Source: a virus. From it: a stretch of 64,000 bases of DNA. Shown here piece after piece: positions 24,654-45,571 of the stretch. The notes under the pieces were generated by a model. It was not told where the DNA came from. It ran no database searches and saw only the letters and a program-made list of their open reading frames with translations. Numbering within the stretch: the first letter of the stretch is position 1; every line of letters starts with the position of its first letter. The position numbers and the translations under genes were made by a program. The DNA lies in IMG/VR virus record IMGVR_UViG_3300043399_000633, positions 32,887 to 96,886 of that record, one strand, 5' to 3'.

Positions 24654-24851
24654 TTGACAATAAATGGAGAATAGACTAGAATATGGAAAGTTGACAGTCA
24701 CACTTAAGTGTGAATGGCAAAAAGGTAAAAAGAAAAATTTGACAATAAATGGAGAACAGAATAGAATATGGATCGTTGACAGATACAAATTCGAATCTGT
24801 TCAAAAAGATAGAAAAAAACTCTTGACAAAAAATGGAGAAAAGATTAGAAT
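24654..24851 (+). promoter_or_regulatory. Three tandem sigma70-type promoters
   Basis: TTGACAA(T/A)AAATGGAGAA.AGA.TAGAAT at 24654, 24739, 24823. Confidence 0.7.
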
Positions 24852-26231: not shown

Positions 26232-26326
26232 GGAAAGTAATGCAGGCATATTGGTGTGCCGACTAGTTTCGAAAGCTAGGTTCCCATGTGACATGGGATG
26301 GGGTTCGATTCCTCTGCTTTCCGCCA
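26232..26326 (+). tRNA. tRNA-Ser(CGA), 8/4-type fold
   Basis: 8-bp acceptor, 4-bp T stem, 6-bp D stem, long variable arm, GCCA. Confidence 0.75.
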
Positions 26327-26330
26327 GTTT

Positions 26331-26392
26331 TAGGATGCTAACAGCAAATTTTAACATCAAACTGCTAATTTGAAACGTTAAAACGCATCCTG
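26331..26392 (+). ncRNA. ACAGCAA-stem (Y-RNA-like) RNA with anticodon-loop cargo (GCT)
   Basis: TAGGATGC/GCATCCTG stem, TAACAGCAA, TCAAA-CTGCTAA-TTTGA. Confidence 0.65.
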
Positions 26393-26404
26393 TGATATAT
26401 CTGT

Positions 26405-26481
26405 TGGGGTGACATACGACGGGAAGTATACTGGGCTTTGAACTCAGGTCTTAGTCGGTTCGAATCCGACCACCCTTGCCA
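26405..26481 (+). tRNA. tRNA-Gln(TTG), atypical D arm
   Basis: Cloverleaf, CCA. Confidence 0.8.
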
Positions 26482-26518
26482 AATTTTTTGTCAGCATAGT
26501 TTGTCACTAAATAGTGAT

Positions 26519-27343
26519 ATGAATATTTCCTATGCTGATAATGGATGGACTGTGTTCATCAACGATGATCTAACCACATTGTCTAACGACGAAATAAAGC
26601 AAGTTGCTAAATTCGTTGTTACAAATATGGTTGTTGTGTTCAAAAAACAAAACCTTACTCCAGAACAGGAATTAAAATTCTGTAGAGTGATAGGCAATCA
26701 CCAGTACTACCCTGCTTCGTATGAACGAGGAAAGCATATCAGATTGAATGACGGTATACTTAGGGTGACTGGTAAAAAAAATGAATATGGCGAACCTGGA
26801 CTTTTTGGCCATACTTCTGCACTTGATTGGCATGCCAATCAACCTAGTAACAAAGAACGTAAGCCATTGATTTGGTTGTACGGTGCAGAAGGGACTAAGG
26901 GTTCAAGAACAAGCTGGCTCAACAATATTGCTAGCTATCAGGATTTGCCCACTGATCTCAAAAATGAAATTGATAGTCTACAAGTTTTTTGTGGATACGC
27001 AAAAGGCAAGTATTCTAATAGTTCTTATTTTGTAGAACATGTCAATGAGTCTAATCCCATTGATCTTGTTCAAACAAACAAAGAAGGTAAGAAGGGATTG
27101 TTTTTTCCATTCTTACAAATATTCGGCTTTAAAGATAAAGACGAACAGTATTTCAACAAAATAATGCAACAATTGATCGATCATGTCGTTCAAGAAAAGT
27201 ACATGTATCATCATGATTGGGATGACGGAGATGTTGTCATTTCAGAACAAATATTAAGCATCCACAAACGTTGGGCTTTTGATGATATGGAAAATCGTGT
27301 GTTGCATAGAATTGCGTTTGACTATTCAAACGTATACAAATAA
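26519..27343 (+). CDS. TauD/TfdA-family dioxygenase
   Basis: VVVFK.Q.L, WHAN, W..GDVVI...HKR, R.L.R. Confidence 0.85.
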   Translation: MNISYADNGWTVFINDDLTTLSNDEIKQVAKFVVTNMVVVFKKQNLTPEQELKFCRVIGNHQYYPASYERGKHIRLNDGILRVTGKKNEYGEPGLFGHTSALDWHANQPSNKERKPLIWLYGAEGTKGSRTSWLNNIASYQDLPTDLKNEIDSLQVFCGYAKGKYSNSSYFVEHVNESNPIDLVQTNKEGKKGLFFPFLQIFGFKDKDEQYFNKIMQQLIDHVVQEKYMYHHDWDDGDVVISEQILSIHKRWAFDDMENRVLHRIAFDYSNVYK

Positions 27344-31515: not shown

Positions 31516-31601
31516 CTTGACACAAATTAGTAAGAGTGCTATACTGTGTATCTGTTGTTGAGTGATCAGCACAAATTCTTTAAAAACTTAATTACAATAC
31601 T

Positions 31602-31819: not shown

Positions 31820-31939
31820 GGGGCCTTAGTGTAATGGTAGCATGTTTAAAGACGGTTATCCTGATAGGATACGGACAGCAAACTTTCTCAATTCCACGAT
31901 AAGGAAAAGGTCCAGGTTCGAATCCTGGGGGCTCCACCA
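31820..31939 (+). ncRNA. CCA-ended tRNA body with permuted ACAGCAA stem replacing the anticodon arm
   Basis: GGGGCCT/GGGCTCC acceptor, D and T arms, TATCCT-GAT-AGGATA-CGGACAGCAA. Confidence 0.65.
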
Positions 31940-31947
31940 AAGTTATT

Positions 31948-32023
31948 GCCCTCTTGGAGCAGCGGAGTGCTCGTCGCCCTGTCACGGCGAAGGCCACGGG
32001 TTCGAATCCCGTAGGGGGCGCCA
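31948..32023 (+). tRNA. tRNA-Asp(GTC)
   Basis: Cloverleaf, CCA. Confidence 0.9.
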
Positions 32024-32027
32024 AATT

Positions 32028-32084
32028 TAGGATGCTAACAGCAAATTTTACTCAACTTTCAATTGGTGAAAAAAATGCATCCTG
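32028..32084 (+). ncRNA. ACAGCAA-stem RNA with anticodon-loop cargo (TTC)
   Basis: TAGGATGC/GCATCCTG, CAA-CTTTCAA-TTG. Confidence 0.65.
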
Positions 32085-32095
32085 TCATTTTTAAT

Positions 32096-32169
32096 GGTGT
32101 CTTTAGTGTAGTGGAAGCAAAACTGACTGTGAATCAGTAGGCGAGGGTTCGATTCCCCAAGACACCCCA
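32096..32169 (+). tRNA. tRNA-His(GTG)
   Basis: G-1:C73, CCA. Confidence 0.85.
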
Positions 32170-33234: not shown

Positions 33235-33346
33235 GGGGATACTTACAGCAACATCTATCAAACGATAGGTAGTTGGTTCGATTCCAACTTTTTCCACATG
33301 GGAAAATAGCTCATTAGGTAGAGCATTCGTCAAGAAATGTATCCCG
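33235..33346 (+). ncRNA. YrlA-like RNA (circularly permuted tRNA domain on ACAGCAA stem)
   Basis: GGGATAC/GTATCCC stem; order T arm, closed acceptor hairpin, D arm. Confidence 0.75.
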
Positions 33347-33459: not shown

Positions 33460-33587
33460 GGAGATGTGATGTAATGGTAGCATAGCACAGCAAAAACCGT
33501 ATTCTGTTTTAGCATACGTGCAGCAACATCTTAGCTATCCCTCTGTGAAAGGGCTTGACCGTGGTTCGATTCCCGGCGTCTCCACCA
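33460..33587 (+). ncRNA. CCA-ended tRNA body with permuted (G)CAGCAA stem and His-like anticodon hairpin
   Basis: GGAGATG/CGTCTCC-ACCA; CGTATTCT..AGCATACG-TGCAGCAA; CCCT-CTGTGAA-AGGG. Confidence 0.65.
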
Positions 33588-33976: not shown

Positions 33977-34052
33977 GCGGGTATAGCTCAGTCGGTAGAG
34001 CAGTAGACTTTTAATCTATTGGTCGTGGGTTCGAATCCCCCTGCCCGTACCA
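33977..34052 (+). tRNA. tRNA-Lys(TTT)
   Basis: Cloverleaf, CCA. Confidence 0.9.
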
Positions 34053-34588: not shown

Positions 34589-34690
34589 GGGATGACTACA
34601 GCAACACAAATTTCTGCAGCCATATTTTGCAGGCCAGCCCAGTAGGGGTGTGTCGTGGGTTCGACTCTCGGCTTTAGACACATCATCCAG
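34589..34690 (+). ncRNA. ACAGCAA-stem RNA with three-hairpin cargo including a T-arm-like hairpin
   Basis: GGATGA/TCATCC, CTACAGCAA, GGGTTCGACTC. Confidence 0.6.
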
Positions 34691-40310: not shown

Positions 40311-41201
40311 CAAGGGCAGCTTAATGTCCTACACGGTATGGTTCGCCCAGCTGTGTGAAGAATAAGTCAGGTGACTGACCCAAAGGAGGTAAGCCTACAT
40401 AACTCCGCTAGTAATAGTTCATTTAAGCAAGCCTGCTCACACCCGCGAGGGTGCGTTCACTGAGAAGACCGGTGGATGTAACAATGAAGCAAGTGTGTTG
40501 GAAAGAATGTCTGTTTAAGTCCCCGCAAGGGTAAGACAGGCAGACAGAGAGTAACAGGTGGTGCTGACCTCAACACAAAACCAACTTGCGAATTGGTATG
40601 AGAAAGGGTAGTATTATGATCCGAAGGGTCGCACCTAAGGGTTGTAGTGCAGTATGAGTGGTTAGTGGGCATGTAGTAATACATGTACACCGATCGCAAA
40701 ATACGACTGAGTAGTCCGCGAGACAAAAGGTACGTGGTGTGTTGTATTGAGTAGAGCAAAACTTTATTCAGCAACTGAGGCAGCACATCATAGTAGGTCA
40801 AATGTAGATCAATGGTAGATCGTCTGTATGATGAACAGAATGCTGTCGGTTCAAGTCCGATCATTTTAACAAAAACGCAAAGACTGCCTCGGTTGTATGT
40901 GAAAAACATCTAATACTTGACTCTTCGGAGAATCAAGTCTGACGTAACTCGCAAGGTGAAATCAGTTTATGCAGGATATTTCGTAGCCCGCAAGGCTTAA
41001 TGGACCGCAAGTTCAACGGAATGGAAAGCGTAGAATAGCATACAATGTCAAGTCTACTGCCTGACTCTAAACGGCGATGTTGGTAACAGACTAGGTTACT
41101 GTGTAATAACAGGGCTTAGTGGATATCTAGAGAAGGTTGGCTCGCAAGGCTAACTATAATGCTAGAGGTGTTACTCGGTAAGGATGTAATCTCAGTCCTC
41201 C
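40311..41201 (+). ncRNA. GOLLD-like giant ncRNA with embedded tRNA-like domain (40797..40870)
   Basis: About 890 nt without a plus-strand ORF, many GNRA hairpins (CGCAAG/CGCGAG), embedded cloverleaf, phage tRNA-cluster context; recognised by eye. Confidence 0.7.
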
Positions 41202-42721: not shown

Positions 42722-42784
42722 CTTTACCCAAAATGATTGATTGCAATACGTGTGTAGTGTATACTTCATGTATTGAATGATTTA

Positions 42785-42942
42785 AGGATCGGTACAGCAA
42801 CATTCTGCTATTATAGTGAATGGTCTGGATACGGTATGGTGTTAGCTGGAGGGGTCACCCTGTGAAGGCTAACATTGAAATACTACCGGACGAACTCAGA
42901 GTGATGGCCTGAGTATAATAAAAGCAGTCGAAAACGATCCTG
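42785..42942 (+). ncRNA. ACAGCAA-stem RNA with large multibranch cargo
   Basis: AGGATCG/CGATCCT, GTACAGCAA. Confidence 0.7.
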
Positions 42943-42954
42943 TTGTTTTTGTTT

Positions 42955-43188
42955 TAGGATGATTACAGCAAACTAAAAAAAATATCTACTCCAGTTAATG
43001 CAGTAGAAGATGGCCCGGAAGGCAAGTGGAAACACTTCTAGTAGAAATACTAGCGTTAAAGGAACTGATGACCTTGGAAAGACAAGTATGCGCCATCGCA
43101 GACGCAAGGATGGATAGGCTTGAGGAACTGAACCGATGTACTGGGGATGAGGTCAAGCAGAAAATAAAAACCAGTTCCGTTCATCCTG
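42955..43188 (+). ncRNA. ACAGCAA-stem RNA with large multi-hairpin cargo
   Basis: TAGGATGA/TCATCCTG, TTACAGCAA. Confidence 0.7.
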
Positions 43189-43197
43189 TTAGATTAA

Positions 43198-43259
43198 TTG
43201 AATGCTAACAGCAATTTTTAAAAACTCAAATCGCAACTTTGATCTAAAAACGCATTCAG
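43198..43259 (+). ncRNA. ACAGCAA-stem RNA abutting the RBS of the Ro60-like gene
   Basis: TTGAATGC/GCATTCAG, TAACAGCAA, TCAAA-TCGCAAC-TTTGA. Confidence 0.7.
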
Positions 43260-43272
43260 AAAGGAAAATAAA

Positions 43273-44688
43273 ATGAACGCATTTGTTAACGCAGTAGCAA
43301 ACCAAGAAGCACGTACCGCTAACGGTATGAAGGCTCGTAAGTCTAGTGCTAACGCACTGGTCGATCTGTTCTACAACATCGGTGCAAGCCGTGGTAAGAA
43401 CATTGTTCCGGCATTCACTGCTGCCTATGTCCAAGATAAGGACTTGGCATTGCGTATCGCATTGTGGGCGCGTGATGCCCGTAGTGGTGCAGGTGAACGT
43501 CAACTGTTCCGTGATATCTTGACTCATCTTGAAAAGACTGATCCCGATGCGGCAGTTCGTTTGATGAACAAGATTCCTGAACTTGGTCGTTTTGATGACC
43601 TGTTGGTCTTCAAGTCTAAGGACATGAAGGCTAAGGCTTACACGCTGCTTGGTGACAACCTTCGTGCTAAGAATGGACTTGCGGCAAAGTGGACTCCTCG
43701 TAAGGGTGAAGTCGCACGTGAAATCCGTGAATTCTTTGGCATGACTCCAAAGCAATACCGTAAGACTTTGGTTGGAATGACCAGTGTCGTTGAATCGCGA
43801 ATGTGTGCCAACGACTGGGATAACATCAACTTCAGCCACGTTCCTTCACAGGCTGCACGTATTTACAAGAAGGCGTTCAACCGTCATTCTGTAAAGTTTG
43901 CAGAATACGTACAGAAGTTGGTCAGCGGCGATAAGACCGTTAAGGTCAATGCCGGTGCAGTTTTCCCGCACGAAGTTTTGAAGGACATCGTTACCCCTTA
44001 TGGTCGTACGACCTTGGGTAAGACTGAGTTGGATCACTTGACCGCTCAGTGGGATGCGCTTCCTAACTACATGAACGATGCGAACATTCTGCCTATGGTA
44101 GACGTTTCGGGTTCTATGACCTGCCCTGCAGGCAAGGACACTAGCGTTACCTGCTTGAATGTTGCAGTATCGTTGGGTCTGTATCTTGCTGATAAGAACA
44201 AGGGTGCCTTCAAGGATACTTTCTTGACTTTCAGCGGCTCACCTGAACTGTTGACCCTAAAGGGCAACATTGTTCAAAAGGTTGATCAAATGATCAAGTC
44301 TAAGTGGGCAATGGATACTAACCTGCACAAGGCTTTCGACAAGATCCTAAGCGTGGCTGTTGCGAACAATGTTCCTGACACTGACATGCCTAAGATGGTG
44401 TTGATCCTTTCGGACATGCAGTTCAACCAATGTGTTGATCACGATGATTCTGCTATGCAGATGATCGAACGCAAGTACCGTAACGCAGGTTACACTGTGC
44501 CTAGCGTGGTCTTCTGGAACCTAAACTCAAGTGGTAACGTTCCAGTCAAGAGTGACAAGTCTGGTGCGGCTCTAGTCTCTGGCTTCAGCCCAAGCATCAT
44601 GGCAAGCATTCTTGGTGCAGACCCTCAGGAGTTCACTCCTGAAGGCATGATGTTGAAGACCATCATGGCAGATCGCTACAACTGCTAA
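43273..44688 (+). CDS. Ro60/TROVE-like RNA-binding protein (DUF2828-type) with C-terminal vWA domain
   Basis: RD.R.G.GER..F, AKW.PR, Y+K.L, DVSGSM MIDAS, FLTFS..P, ILSDMQF, FWNL, SGFSP. Confidence 0.8.
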   Translation: MNAFVNAVANQEARTANGMKARKSSANALVDLFYNIGASRGKNIVPAFTAAYVQDKDLALRIALWARDARSGAGERQLFRDILTHLEKTDPDAAVRLMNKIPELGRFDDLLVFKSKDMKAKAYTLLGDNLRAKNGLAAKWTPRKGEVAREIREFFGMTPKQYRKTLVGMTSVVESRMCANDWDNINFSHVPSQAARIYKKAFNRHSVKFAEYVQKLVSGDKTVKVNAGAVFPHEVLKDIVTPYGRTTLGKTELDHLTAQWDALPNYMNDANILPMVDVSGSMTCPAGKDTSVTCLNVAVSLGLYLADKNKGAFKDTFLTFSGSPELLTLKGNIVQKVDQMIKSKWAMDTNLHKAFDKILSVAVANNVPDTDMPKMVLILSDMQFNQCVDHDDSAMQMIERKYRNAGYTVPSVVFWNLNSSGNVPVKSDKSGAALVSGFSPSIMASILGADPQEFTPEGMMLKTIMADRYNC

Positions 44689-44768: not shown

Positions 44769-44987
44769 ATGATGTACAAGATAAATGAATTAGAATTTTT
44801 AGACTTAGAGTCCGCAATGGACTATGCTAAGTCATTGAACGAATTTGTTACCATTGTGGGTGACGGGTTCGAAGTTTGTGGTCGATTCGGAGTAGATTCA
44901 GTACGTGACGGTAAGTGCCCAGATGGCATTGCATATGACTGGAACAAGGCTAGTCGAATCGGCCGTGTAAGAAAGGAGAGAGTATAA
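44769..44987 (+). CDS. Hypothetical protein
   Basis: Follows promoter; coupled to next gene. Confidence 0.7.
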   Translation: MMYKINELEFLDLESAMDYAKSLNEFVTIVGDGFEVCGRFGVDSVRDGKCPDGIAYDWNKASRIGRVRKERV

Positions 44988-45571
44988 TGCCTAGCGTTTT
45001 CTTAGTAAGCGACACTCACTTTGGTCATCTCGGGGTCTGCAAGTTCATGGGGCCCGACGGTGTGACTAAGCTCCGTCCTTGGGATACTCCTGAGGATATG
45101 GACGAAGAAATGATCAAGCGTTGGAATGAAACCGTAAAGCCCAACGACAAAGTTTATCACCTCGGTGATGTTGTAATCAATCGTAAAGCCCTCAAGACTC
45201 TTGCGAGGCTGAACGGTGATAAGATCCTGATCAAGGGCAACCATGATATCTTTAAACTTGAGGAATACCTTCCTTACTTTAGGGATATTCGTGCATATCA
45301 TGTGATGAATGGATGCATCCTCAGTCATATTCCTATGCACACTGACAACCTTGGTCGTTTCGGTACTAACATTCATGGACATACTCATGCACACCGTGTC
45401 ATGCGTGACAATGGATACCGTGGTCAAGAGATTGATCCTAGGTTTCATTGTGTCTGTGTAGAACAAACTGACTTTAGACCTATCCTCTTTGAAGATGTTG
45501 TAAAGAGGATCAAAGAAGAAGGTGGACAAGTTAGCATGAAAAGTCGAGAAGAGGTCTATGGACCAGGATAA
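44987..45571 (+). CDS. Calcineurin-like metallophosphoesterase
   Basis: DTHFGH, LGD, GNHD, SHIP, HGHTH. Confidence 0.9.
   Translation: MPSVFLVSDTHFGHLGVCKFMGPDGVTKLRPWDTPEDMDEEMIKRWNETVKPNDKVYHLGDVVINRKALKTLARLNGDKILIKGNHDIFKLEEYLPYFRDIRAYHVMNGCILSHIPMHTDNLGRFGTNIHGHTHAHRVMRDNGYRGQEIDPRFHCVCVEQTDFRPILFEDVVKRIKEEGGQVSMKSREEVYGPG

What the first reader, a model, noticed from the sequence alone, without database searches (positions are those of the whole stretch)
26331..26392. Minimal handle RNAs that display isolated anticodon stem-loops
Seen: the three shortest members carry one hairpin with a 7-nt loop. At 26331 it is CT-GCT-AA (Ser-like) and at 32028 CT-TTC-AA (Glu-like), both matching the canonical C32 U33 NNN A37 A38 loop; at 43198 it is TC-GCA-AC (imperfect, Cys-like). 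Inference: protein-stabilised anticodon decoys for host anticodon nucleases or tRNA-modifying enzymes.
Basis: partly seen in the sequence, partly recalled or inferred. Interest (0 to 1): 0.8.

Follow-up and report, generated by a model that had tools for sequence, protein, structure and literature searches.

The report
Anticodon-arm mimics on Ro60-like handle RNAs
Two of the three tiny RNAs in this freshwater phage are a conserved protein-binding "handle" carrying a look-alike of a tRNA anticodon arm, probably forming particles with a phage Ro60-like ring protein, while the third looks like a control element for that protein's own gene.

Summary
The three elements exist as described at 26331-26392, 32028-32084 and 43198-43259. 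Each has a 7-8 bp closing stem, two nucleotides, then ACAGCAA, around a small hairpin with a 7-nt loop.

The handle marks a family of at least seven closed RNAs in the window. Three lie in tandem before a 471-aa DUF2828 gene whose model folds like Ro60. The same handle lies near DUF2828 genes in Felix O1-like phage wV8, KVP40, S13, A511, DLP_6 and a cyanophage.

The anticodon reading holds for the two minis inside the tRNA array:
- Of 105 unique array minis from relatives, 76 have a stem of at least 4 bp and a 7-nt YU-NNN-RN loop (shuffles: mean 3.1, max 11).
- 61 are exactly CU-NNN-AA (shuffles: 0.4).
- Eight stem scaffolds each carry 2-4 different triplets.

It fails for 43198. Gene-proximal orthologs mostly have 9-nt loops or no hairpin, and all end 14-17 nt before the ATG, so an autoregulatory operator is more likely.

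A decoy or tether role for anticodon-binding enzymes is plausible but untested. The handle signature matches Dictyostelium Class I RNAs (below Rfam threshold). I found no paper describing the phage family. This scan has noted the same system in at least 106 other genomes.

The parts
26331..26392 (+). Minimal handle RNA M1: closing stem AGGAUGC/GCAUCCU, UA-ACAGCAA, a 7-bp inner helix, and the anticodon-arm-like hairpin UCAAA-CUGCUAA-UUUGA (triplet GCU, Ser-like). It has a 3' CUG tail.
   Evidence: Orthologs with the same loop are L026:1328-1389 and L185. The same stem also carries CUUGUAA. It lies between two tRNA-like genes, 26232-26322 and 26405-26478.
32028..32084 (+). Minimal handle RNA M2: the same handle, with hairpin UCAA-CUUUCAA-UUGG (triplet UUC, Glu-like; 4 bp including one G.U).
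   Evidence: Orthologs are L053:2045-2103, L123 and L152. The same loop sits on a GC-containing stem in Stenotrophomonas phage DLP_6, L205:30891-30979. It starts 4 nt after tRNA-Asp (31948-32023) and ends 11 nt before tRNA-His (32096-32168).
43198..43259 (+). Gene-proximal minimal handle RNA M3: handle UGAAUGC/GCAUUCA, hairpin UCAAA-UCGCAAC-UUUGA. It ends 14 nt before the ATG of the Ro60-like gene, next to the Shine-Dalgarno AAGGA. It is a likely operator or leader element, not an anticodon display.
   Evidence: The KVP40 counterpart (L082:5966-6005) holds the RBS in its loop and the ATG in its 3' arm.
43273..44688 (+). 471-aa DUF2828 + DUF7788 protein (phrog_850 'RNA-binding protein'), predicted as a Ro60-like HEAT ring plus a vWA domain with a MIDAS motif. 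It is the presumed partner of the handle.
42785..42941 (+). First of the three tandem handle RNAs upstream of the gene (157 nt, structured cargo).
   Evidence: conserved synteny in the relatives.
42955..43188 (+). Second tandem handle RNA (about 232 nt of cargo).
33235..33346 (+). Handle RNA with a YrlA-type permuted tRNA body (T arm, closed acceptor-like hairpin, D arm).
   Evidence: z = -4.2. One search gives a partial Rfam YrlA hit at 33268-33324 of 29.9 bits, below the gathering score of 69.
34590..34688 (+). Handle RNA of 99 nt (GGAUGA/UCAUCC) with a hairpin and a T-arm-like element.

Best explanation
M1 (26331-26392) and M2 (32028-32084) are the smallest members of a phage family of Y-RNA-like small RNAs. 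All members share one handle: a 7-8 bp covarying stem joining the 5' and 3' ends, two nucleotides, a single-stranded ACAGCAA, and a 3' CUG tail. The handle most likely binds the phage's Ro60-like ring protein (ORF 43273-44688).

Their cargo is a 4-5 bp stem with a 7-nt loop, C32 U33 NNN A37 A38. This is a structural copy of a tRNA anticodon arm without the tRNA body.

They lie as spacers between tRNA genes. They are probably cut out of the tRNA precursor transcript by the tRNA-processing enzymes and trimmed back to the protein-protected handle (inferred).

The particle would then present an anticodon arm to proteins that read anticodon loops. I think the most likely use is to bind or soak up host anticodon-loop nucleases, and less likely tRNA-modifying enzymes, during infection. 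This would parallel Y RNAs tethering Ro60 to partner proteins (inferred, not shown).

M3 (43198-43259) shares the handle but not the cargo. It most likely lets the protein bind its own mRNA leader and limit its own translation (inferred from position).
For: Family and partner:
- Seven closed handles lie on the + strand of the window, three of them in tandem before the gene.
- The trio-plus-gene layout is conserved in relatives with 73-89% protein identity, with covarying arms such as AGGATGC, AGAATGT, AGGATAG, AGGTTAG, AGGATCG and AGGATGA.
- The same motif, with other arm sequences, lies near the DUF2828 gene in wV8, KVP40, BUCT-ZZ01, S13, DLP_6 and A511.
- Three of five contigs found through the handle alone hold the gene, including both that are at least 90% complete.

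Protein:
- The AF2 model has pLDDT 90.
- The 12 best Foldseek matches (all 13 E <= 0.001 counted) in PDB are Ro60, including phage phiLo Ro60 (E 4e-9 to 2.5e-5, TM 0.45-0.66).
- The MIDAS D277/S279/S281 residues are invariant.
- A preprint reports the Bas63 homolog as Ro60-like by structure and as a counter-defence gene (PMC11482910).

Anticodon-arm cargo:
- 76/105 unique array minis match YU-NNN-RN on a stem of at least 4 bp, and 61/105 match CU-NNN-AA. Shuffles give means of 3.1 and 0.4.
- Stem pairs 29-41 and 30-40 covary through four or five pair types.
- Eight stem scaffolds carry 2-4 different triplets each with the frame fixed.
- Sixteen triplets occur and none is a stop anticodon. A is rare at positions 34 and 35.
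- The frame CU..AA is also the commonest one in the 955 tRNAs of the same phages, at 49%.
- Anticodon-arm cargos also occur in S13 (CUUAAAC) and DLP_6 (CUUUCAA plus a T arm).

Context:
- 69/105 array minis start within 15 nt after a same-strand tRNA, and 56/105 end within 15 nt before the next one.

Feasibility of the proposed use:
- Isolated anticodon stem-loops are cleaved by an activated Cas13b (PMC13692257).
- Lys(UUU) and Thr(UGU), the prime targets of the PARIS nuclease AriB with motif U36AAUC, are the first- and third-commonest triplets here, and 22/76 mimics carry UAAUC at positions 36-40 (PMC12409363).

M3 as operator:
- All 54 unique gene-proximal minis end 14-17 nt before the ATG and have variable cargo, or none, down to 34 nt in total.
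- In KVP40 the RBS and ATG lie inside the element.
Against: - No RNA data: no RNA run holds this DNA. Expression, RNA ends and protein binding are therefore all inferred.
- The mimic stems are A/U-rich and do not resemble the cognate phage tRNA stems.
- The frame stays CU..AA even where the cognate tRNAs differ: Glu tRNAs have CUUUCAC, and most Ser(GCU) and Cys tRNAs start UU. So this is a generic anticodon-loop architecture rather than faithful copies of particular tRNAs.
- Pair 27-43 is often mismatched.
- Some nucleases need more than the arm. AriB also reads the D loop (PMC12409363).
- Minis of wV8 and A511 carry other cargos, so anticodon display is not universal in the family.
- The homolog sequences are related, so the counts are not independent events.
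- No RNA ligase or RtcB was found in this 97-kb fragment, which is only 27% complete and therefore uninformative.
Confidence: 0.6

Rival explanations
1. The hairpins are U-turn 'kissing' loops that pair with another RNA, such as a codon-like triplet in an mRNA or a complementary tRNA anticodon, in the way antisense RNAs use anticodon-like loops for fast pairing. On this reading the Ro60-like particle is guided to RNA targets rather than to proteins.
For: A 7-nt loop with a conserved U33 and a variable centre is the geometry used for rapid RNA-RNA recognition (general knowledge of YUNR loops). Variation is concentrated at positions 34-35 while the frame stays fixed.
Against: Only three variable nucleotides give very little specificity. 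Most loops do not fit YUNR: CUUUUAA has U at the R position. No complementary partner was sought or found.
Confidence: 0.12
2. The minis are passive spacer or processing hairpins of the tRNA operon, or decayed remnants of handle-bearing tRNA mimics. On this reading the anticodon-like loop is an inherited leftover with no function of its own.
For: They lie within 15 nt of tRNAs. Larger family members carry whole tRNA bodies, so loss of parts could leave arms behind. Fold z-scores are modest, -2.5 and -1.7.
Against: The loop frame and stem pairing are kept across 38 distinct arm sequences with compensatory changes. Remnants should decay. Gene-proximal minis of the same size show that without constraint the cargo drifts to 9-nt loops or nothing. 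No terminator-like site coincides with them.
Confidence: 0.13
3. The arms recruit tRNA anticodon-loop modification enzymes (t6A37, i6A37, wobble-U or queuosine enzymes). The purpose would be either to sequester them or to have the RNAs modified so that they pass as tRNA.
For: Every N36 = U or A mimic has A37, and most also have A38. These are the U36-A37 and A36-A37-A38 contexts used by the t6A and i6A enzymes (enzyme determinants from general knowledge). Bacterial YrlA RNAs are modified by tRNA enzymes (PMC4201824).
Against: There is no modification data. The same features are expected of any anticodon-loop mimic, so they do not separate this reading from the nuclease-decoy reading.
Confidence: 0.15

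Closest known systems
Ro60 (Rsr) with Y RNAs, especially bacterial and phage YrlA (Rfam RF02553; Chen et al. 2014, PMC4201824; Thermus phage phiLo Ro60 with Yrl1/Yrl2, PMC12135203)
   Same: A ring protein with the Ro60 fold plus a vWA domain. Small RNAs closed by a 5'/3' stem are encoded beside the gene. The cargo is modular and mimics tRNA parts. One window member (33235-33346) has the YrlA order of T arm, acceptor-like hairpin and D arm.
   Different: The protein matches DUF2828/DUF7788, with no Pfam TROVE match and no sequence hit to any PDB chain. The handle is ACAGCAA next to the stem, not the bulged helix or CGAA motif. There is no Rfam YrlA match at threshold. The minis carry an anticodon arm, the one tRNA part that YrlA lacks. 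Copies are scattered through a tRNA array.
Class I RNAs of dictyostelid social amoebae (Rfam RF01414; Kjellin et al. 2021, PMC7919456)
   Same: Length of 42-65 nt. A 6-bp covarying terminal stem. An adjacent motif whose Rfam consensus reads CUUACAGCAA (window: CUAACAGCAA). A 3' CUG(U) tail whose C pairs with the 5' G. A variable interior. M2 aligns end to end with the model.
   Different: Scores are 22.2 and 15.9 bits against a gathering score of 41.5. Class I RNAs are eukaryotic, have their own promoter element, and their known binder is an RRM protein. The paper reports them as absent outside Dictyostelia. No anticodon-like cargo is described for them.
Phage-encoded tRNAs that defeat anticodon-targeting defences (for example T5 tRNA-Lys/Thr/Asn against PARIS AriB, PMC12409363)
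   Same: They lie in phage tRNA arrays. Lys(UUU), Thr(UGU) and Asn(GUU) arms are all represented, and 22 of 76 mimics carry the UAAUC 36-40 motif of AriB targets.
   Different: Those are complete, functional tRNAs that replace cleaved host tRNAs. The minis lack acceptor, D and T arms and cannot be charged, so any protective effect would have to come from binding or decoy action.

Membership tests
Ro60/Y RNA particle (YrlA type, RF02553) | The partner protein is Ro60 (TROVE HEAT ring plus vWA) | tested here: inconclusive
   The fold matches Ro60 over the whole length. Pfam gives DUF2828/DUF7788 and not TROVE, and phmmer finds no PDB chain.
Ro60/Y RNA particle (YrlA type, RF02553) | The RNA matches the YrlA covariance model, or carries the conserved Ro-binding helix/CGAA motif | tested here: not met
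   No YrlA hit on M1, M2 or M3. The only hit is a partial 29.9-bit match at 33268-33324 against a gathering score of 69. The handle motif is ACAGCAA.
Ro60/Y RNA particle (YrlA type, RF02553) | The RNA is encoded next to the protein gene | tested here: met
   Three handle RNAs lie directly upstream, in the window and in the relatives. M1 and M2 lie 17 and 11 kb upstream in the tRNA array.
Ro60/Y RNA particle (YrlA type, RF02553) | The RNA is physically bound by the protein | not testable with these tools
   Needs RIP, CLIP or EMSA. The complex tool does not take RNA.
Dictyostelium Class I RNA (RF01414) | Short terminal stem, adjacent 11-nt motif (T3, C6, C9, A10, A11), 3' CUGU, length of about 60 nt | tested here: met
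   GCUAACAGCAA fits all five conserved positions. M1 and M2 end in CCUGU, while M3 ends in CAGA. Lengths are 57-62 nt.
Dictyostelium Class I RNA (RF01414) | Score at or above the Rfam gathering threshold | tested here: not met
   22.2 bits (M2) and 15.9 bits (M1) against 41.5.
tRNA anticodon stem-loop (structural mimic, not a tRNA) | 5-bp stem, 7-nt loop, Y32, U33, purine 37 | tested here: met
   M1 meets it fully. M2 has a 4-bp stem. Among homologs, 76/105 array minis meet it. M3 fails U33 and its orthologs fail on loop length.
tRNA (RF00005) | Cloverleaf with acceptor, D and T arms | tested here: not met
   Neither ARAGORN nor Rfam calls a tRNA at the three elements.
Intrinsic terminator | G+C-rich hairpin followed by a U run | tested here: not met
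   No terminator-like site at M1, M2 or M3.

The most novel reading that the evidence does not exclude
Phages carry a swappable library of anticodon arms mounted on a Ro60-like particle. By point changes at positions 34-35 on a fixed scaffold, the phage retargets an RNA-protein decoy against whichever anticodon-specific nuclease its hosts deploy. This would be an RNA-based, programmable counter-defence. The same handle would be the long-missing link that explains Dictyostelium Class I RNAs as Y-RNA-like partners of a Ro60-like protein.
Probability: 0.25. Interest if true: 0.9.

Novelty: new variant of a known kind. Interest (0 to 1): 0.72.

Why it matters
tRNA cleavage is a major bacterial defence against phages. 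The known phage answers are replacement tRNAs and RNA repair.

A protein-held anticodon arm would be a third answer: a decoy or adaptor. It would also give Ro60-like proteins of phages a concrete RNA partner and a testable job.

The family is widespread. Homologs of the protein occur in 711 phage records, among them phages that can be grown in the laboratory such as Felix O1 relatives, KVP40, S13 and A511. I found the family in no RNA catalogue (Rfam) and in no paper.

The shared signature with Dictyostelium Class I RNAs suggests that this handle is an ancient protein-recognition module.

Tried and rejected
- Rfam at gathering thresholds gave nothing on the three elements. At permissive thresholds only the weak Dicty Class I match appeared.
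- Megablast of the locus against the phage collection found no match.
- Literature searches on 'DUF2828' plus 'RNA', on 'Ro-like' RNA-binding protein plus phage plus tRNA, and on anticodon stem-loop decoys in phages found no description of this RNA family.
- Sequencing runs: no RNA holder is listed.
- Test of whether the arms are copies of the phage's own cognate tRNAs: rejected. Stem identity to same-anticodon tRNAs is no better than to other tRNAs. The exception is a Lys-like arm of relatives that shares 15 nt with the window's tRNA-Lys at 33977.
- My first 'best hairpin' heuristic mis-assigned loops because the inner helix is often longer than the arm. I replaced it with a pattern test with shuffles.
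- MAFFT does not keep all arms in register, so pair counts were made on extracted 17-mers rather than with the count of structure pairs. No covariance model was built.
- RtcB, Rnl2 and Rnl1 were sought in the 97-kb contig and not found, which is uninformative at 27% completeness.
- Terminator or promoter reading of the minis: rejected.
- Complex prediction was not used because it cannot take RNA.

Full report
**Setting.** The window is part of a 96.9-kb contig of an uncultivated freshwater phage, about 27% complete. It holds 41 ARAGORN tRNA genes between 25.2 and 42.5 kb, all on the + strand. It also holds a GOLLD RNA at 40734-41198 and several HNH endonuclease ORFs.

**Observation.** The three elements are present as described.
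- Each begins with (A/U)G(G/A)AUGC, then UA, then ACAGCAA, and ends with GCAU(C/U)C(U/A).
- Two of them continue with GU after the stem.
- The MFE folds give the closing stem, a single-stranded UAACAGCAA, an inner A/U helix and a terminal hairpin with a 7-nt loop.
- The loops are CUGCUAA (5-bp stem, z = -2.5), CUUUCAA (stem of 3 bp plus a bulge in the MFE fold, 4 bp by direct pairing; z = -1.7) and UCGCAAC (5 bp, z = -0.7).
- The 13-mer ATGCTAACAGCAA occurs three times exactly.

**The family.** A scan for a stem, two nucleotides and ACAGCAA finds seven closed members on the + strand: 26332, 32029, 33236, 34590, 42785, 42956 and 43199.
- The member at 33235-33346 has a permuted tRNA body (T arm, closed acceptor-like hairpin, D arm; z = -4.2). 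It gives a partial sub-threshold match to Rfam YrlA.
- Three members lie in tandem directly before ORF 43273-44688.

**The protein.** The ORF matches Pfam DUF2828 and DUF7788 and phrog_850 'RNA-binding protein'. It has no sequence match in the PDB.
- An AlphaFold2 model built from 64 diverse homologs has mean pLDDT 90.
- Its 12 best Foldseek matches (all 13 E <= 0.001 counted) in the PDB are Ro60 from Thermus phage phiLo, Xenopus, human and Deinococcus (E 4e-9 to 2.5e-5, TM 0.45-0.66). vWA domains follow.
- The MIDAS residues D277, S279 and S281 are invariant.
- Homologs occur in 711 phage records. Mycobacteriophage ones are annotated 'Ro-like RNA binding protein'.
- A preprint reports that the Bas63 homolog gp130 is Ro60-like by structure and counters a defence system. 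Its authors guess that neighbouring 'tRNAs' are Y RNAs (PMC11482910).

**Link between handle and gene.** In 80 IMG/VR loci with 73-89% protein identity, the trio of handle RNAs before the gene is conserved. The arms differ but stay paired. The motif recurs with unrelated arm sequences near the gene in:
- Escherichia phage wV8, with four copies between tRNAs;
- Vibrio phage KVP40;
- Synechococcus phage BUCT-ZZ01;
- Cronobacter phage S13;
- Stenotrophomonas phage DLP_6;
- Listeria phage A511.

None of these RNAs is annotated in the records I read. Of five large contigs retrieved through the handle sequence alone, three encode the protein. These include both that are at least 90% complete.

**The anticodon test.** I collected every handle RNA of 75 nt or less from 197 loci. 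These were the 80 loci above plus contigs found with AGGATRYTAACAGCAA, a pattern that does not touch the cargo. I then split them by position.

*Array minis (105 unique):*
- 99 have some hairpin of at least 4 bp with a 7-nt loop.
- 76 fit YU-NNN-RN (200 composition-preserving shuffles: mean 3.1, max 11).
- 61 are exactly CU-NNN-AA (shuffles: mean 0.4, max 2).
- Among the 38 distinct arm sequences, C32 occurs in 31, A37 in 36 and A38 in 31.
- The 29-41 and 30-40 pairs covary through four or five pair types. Pair 27-43 is often mismatched.
- Sixteen triplets occur: UUU 23, UGA 8, UGU 7, GUA 5; GCA, UUC, UUG, UCU and GGU 4 each; GCU and GUU 3 each; others fewer. None is a stop anticodon.
- Eight stem scaffolds each carry two to four different triplets with the frame unchanged. 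For example, CUAGA/UCUAA carries UUU, UGU, UCU and AUU, and CUUUU/AAAAG carries GUA, UGA and CGA.

*The window's own array minis:* M1's scaffold carries GCU or UGU in relatives. M2's CUUUCAA is constant in its orthologs and reappears on a different stem in DLP_6, next to a T arm.

*Gene-proximal minis (54 unique, the class of 43198):*
- Only 3 fit YU-NNN-RN and only 1 fits CU-NNN-AA, which is chance level.
- Thirty-seven have 9-nt loops and five have no hairpin. The shortest elements are 34 nt.
- All end 14-17 nt before the start codon.
- In KVP40 the element's loop contains the GAGGAA ribosome-binding site and its 3' arm contains the ATG.

The 7-nt loop at 43198 is therefore a coincidence. 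This element is better read as a binding site in the gene's own leader, which suggests translational autoregulation (inference).

**Limits of the mimicry.**
- The mimic stems are A/U-rich and are not copies of the cognate tRNAs of the same phages.
- The frame stays CU..AA even where the cognate tRNAs use another frame, for example Glu tRNAs with CUUUCAC.
- CU..AA is also the commonest frame in the 955 tRNAs of these loci, at 49%.

So the arms copy the general anticodon-loop architecture rather than individual tRNAs.

**Context and biogenesis.**
- 69 of 105 array minis start within 15 nt after a same-strand tRNA. 56 end within 15 nt before the next one.
- M2 lies 4 nt after tRNA-Asp and 11 nt before tRNA-His.
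- No terminator-like or promoter-like site coincides with M1 or M2. Near-consensus promoters lie upstream in the array, for example at 31517-31545. A weaker one at 42737-42765 precedes the tandem trio.
- Release by RNase P and 3'-end processing of the flanking tRNAs, followed by trimming, is the simplest route. This is inferred.

**Function.** Nothing here shows function.

*In favour of a decoy or tether for anticodon-loop readers:*
- Y RNAs are known to tether Ro60 to partner proteins (PMC4201824, PMC12135203).
- Isolated anticodon stem-loops are sufficient substrates for at least one defence nuclease (PMC13692257).
- The commonest triplet is Lys(UUU). Lys(UUU), Thr(UGU) and Asn(GUU) are the AriB targets, whose U36AAUC motif is present in 22 of 76 mimics (PMC12409363).
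- Triplets turn over on fixed scaffolds, as expected in an arms race.

*Against:*
- AriB also needs the D loop.
- The same loop features would equally attract modification enzymes.
- Minis of wV8 and A511 carry other cargos.

**Comparison with known families.**
- By architecture and partner, this is a variant of the Ro60/Y RNA particle. It fails the sequence-level membership tests, with no TROVE match, no YrlA match and a different binding motif.
- By RNA signature, the nearest catalogued family is the Dictyostelium Class I RNA. The Rfam consensus GaUcuC-CUUACAGCAAU...GagAuC-UG aligns end to end with M2 at 22.2 bits and with M1 at 15.9 bits, against a gathering score of 41.5.
- The paper's five invariant motif positions and the 3' CUGU all fit.

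**Prior notes and literature.** The scan has recorded the same ACAGCAA/DUF2828 system in at least 106 other genomes. Those notes are not independent evidence. I found no published description of the phage RNA family.

Noticed in passing
window 40734-41198: A GOLLD RNA (Rfam 226 bits) with a tRNA-Ile(GAU) called inside it at 40798-40870.
   Followed up: no
window 26232-26322 and 26405-26478: Two tRNA-like genes flank M1 and ARAGORN does not call either. The first gives only a sub-threshold tRNA-Sec match (32.6 bits against 47). The second is a weak tRNA match (34.5 bits).
   Followed up: no
window 31820-31939 and 33460-33587: CCA-ended tRNA bodies whose anticodon region holds a permuted, loop-closed copy of the handle, followed by a 7-nt-loop hairpin (ACGAUAA; CUGUGAA). 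Rfam calls the second a tRNA at 30.8 bits.
   Followed up: partly
L082 5966-6005 (Vibrio phage KVP40): A gene-proximal handle element of 40 nt. Its loop contains the ribosome-binding site and its 3' arm contains the start codon of the DUF2828 gene.
   Followed up: partly
L081 7719-8496 (Escherichia phage wV8): Four unannotated handle RNAs lie between annotated tRNAs just downstream of the DUF2828 gene. One uses UCAGCAA and one has a YrlA-type tRNA body. The record lists several 'tRNA-OTHER' pseudo-tRNAs nearby.
   Followed up: partly
L205 30891-30979 (Stenotrophomonas phage DLP_6); L204 9671-9734 (Cronobacter phage S13): The DLP_6 handle RNA carries a Glu-like arm (UUUGC-CUUUCAA-GCAAA) plus a T arm. 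The S13 mini carries a Leu(UAA)-like arm (CAAAU-CUUAAAC-AUUUG). A kinase and a metallophosphoesterase gene lie just downstream of the DLP_6 DUF2828 gene.
   Followed up: partly
window 44987-45571: A calcineurin-like phosphoesterase (Pfam Metallophos_2) lies two genes after the Ro60-like gene. It may be an RNA end-healing enzyme.
   Followed up: no
window 26438-27343: A TauD/TfdA-family dioxygenase ORF sits inside the tRNA array, directly after M1 and the weak tRNA.
   Followed up: no
window 24654-24851: Three near-consensus promoter-like sites (TTGACA-17-TAGAAT) spaced about 85 nt apart at the head of the tRNA island.
   Followed up: no
genome contig, 2232-2306 bases before the window start: ARAGORN calls a tRNA with anticodon CUA (amber suppressor type), far from the main tRNA array.
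   Followed up: no
L026 1579-1633: A mini handle RNA whose cargo is a T-arm-like hairpin (UAGG-UUCAACU-CCUA) instead of an anticodon arm.
   Followed up: no
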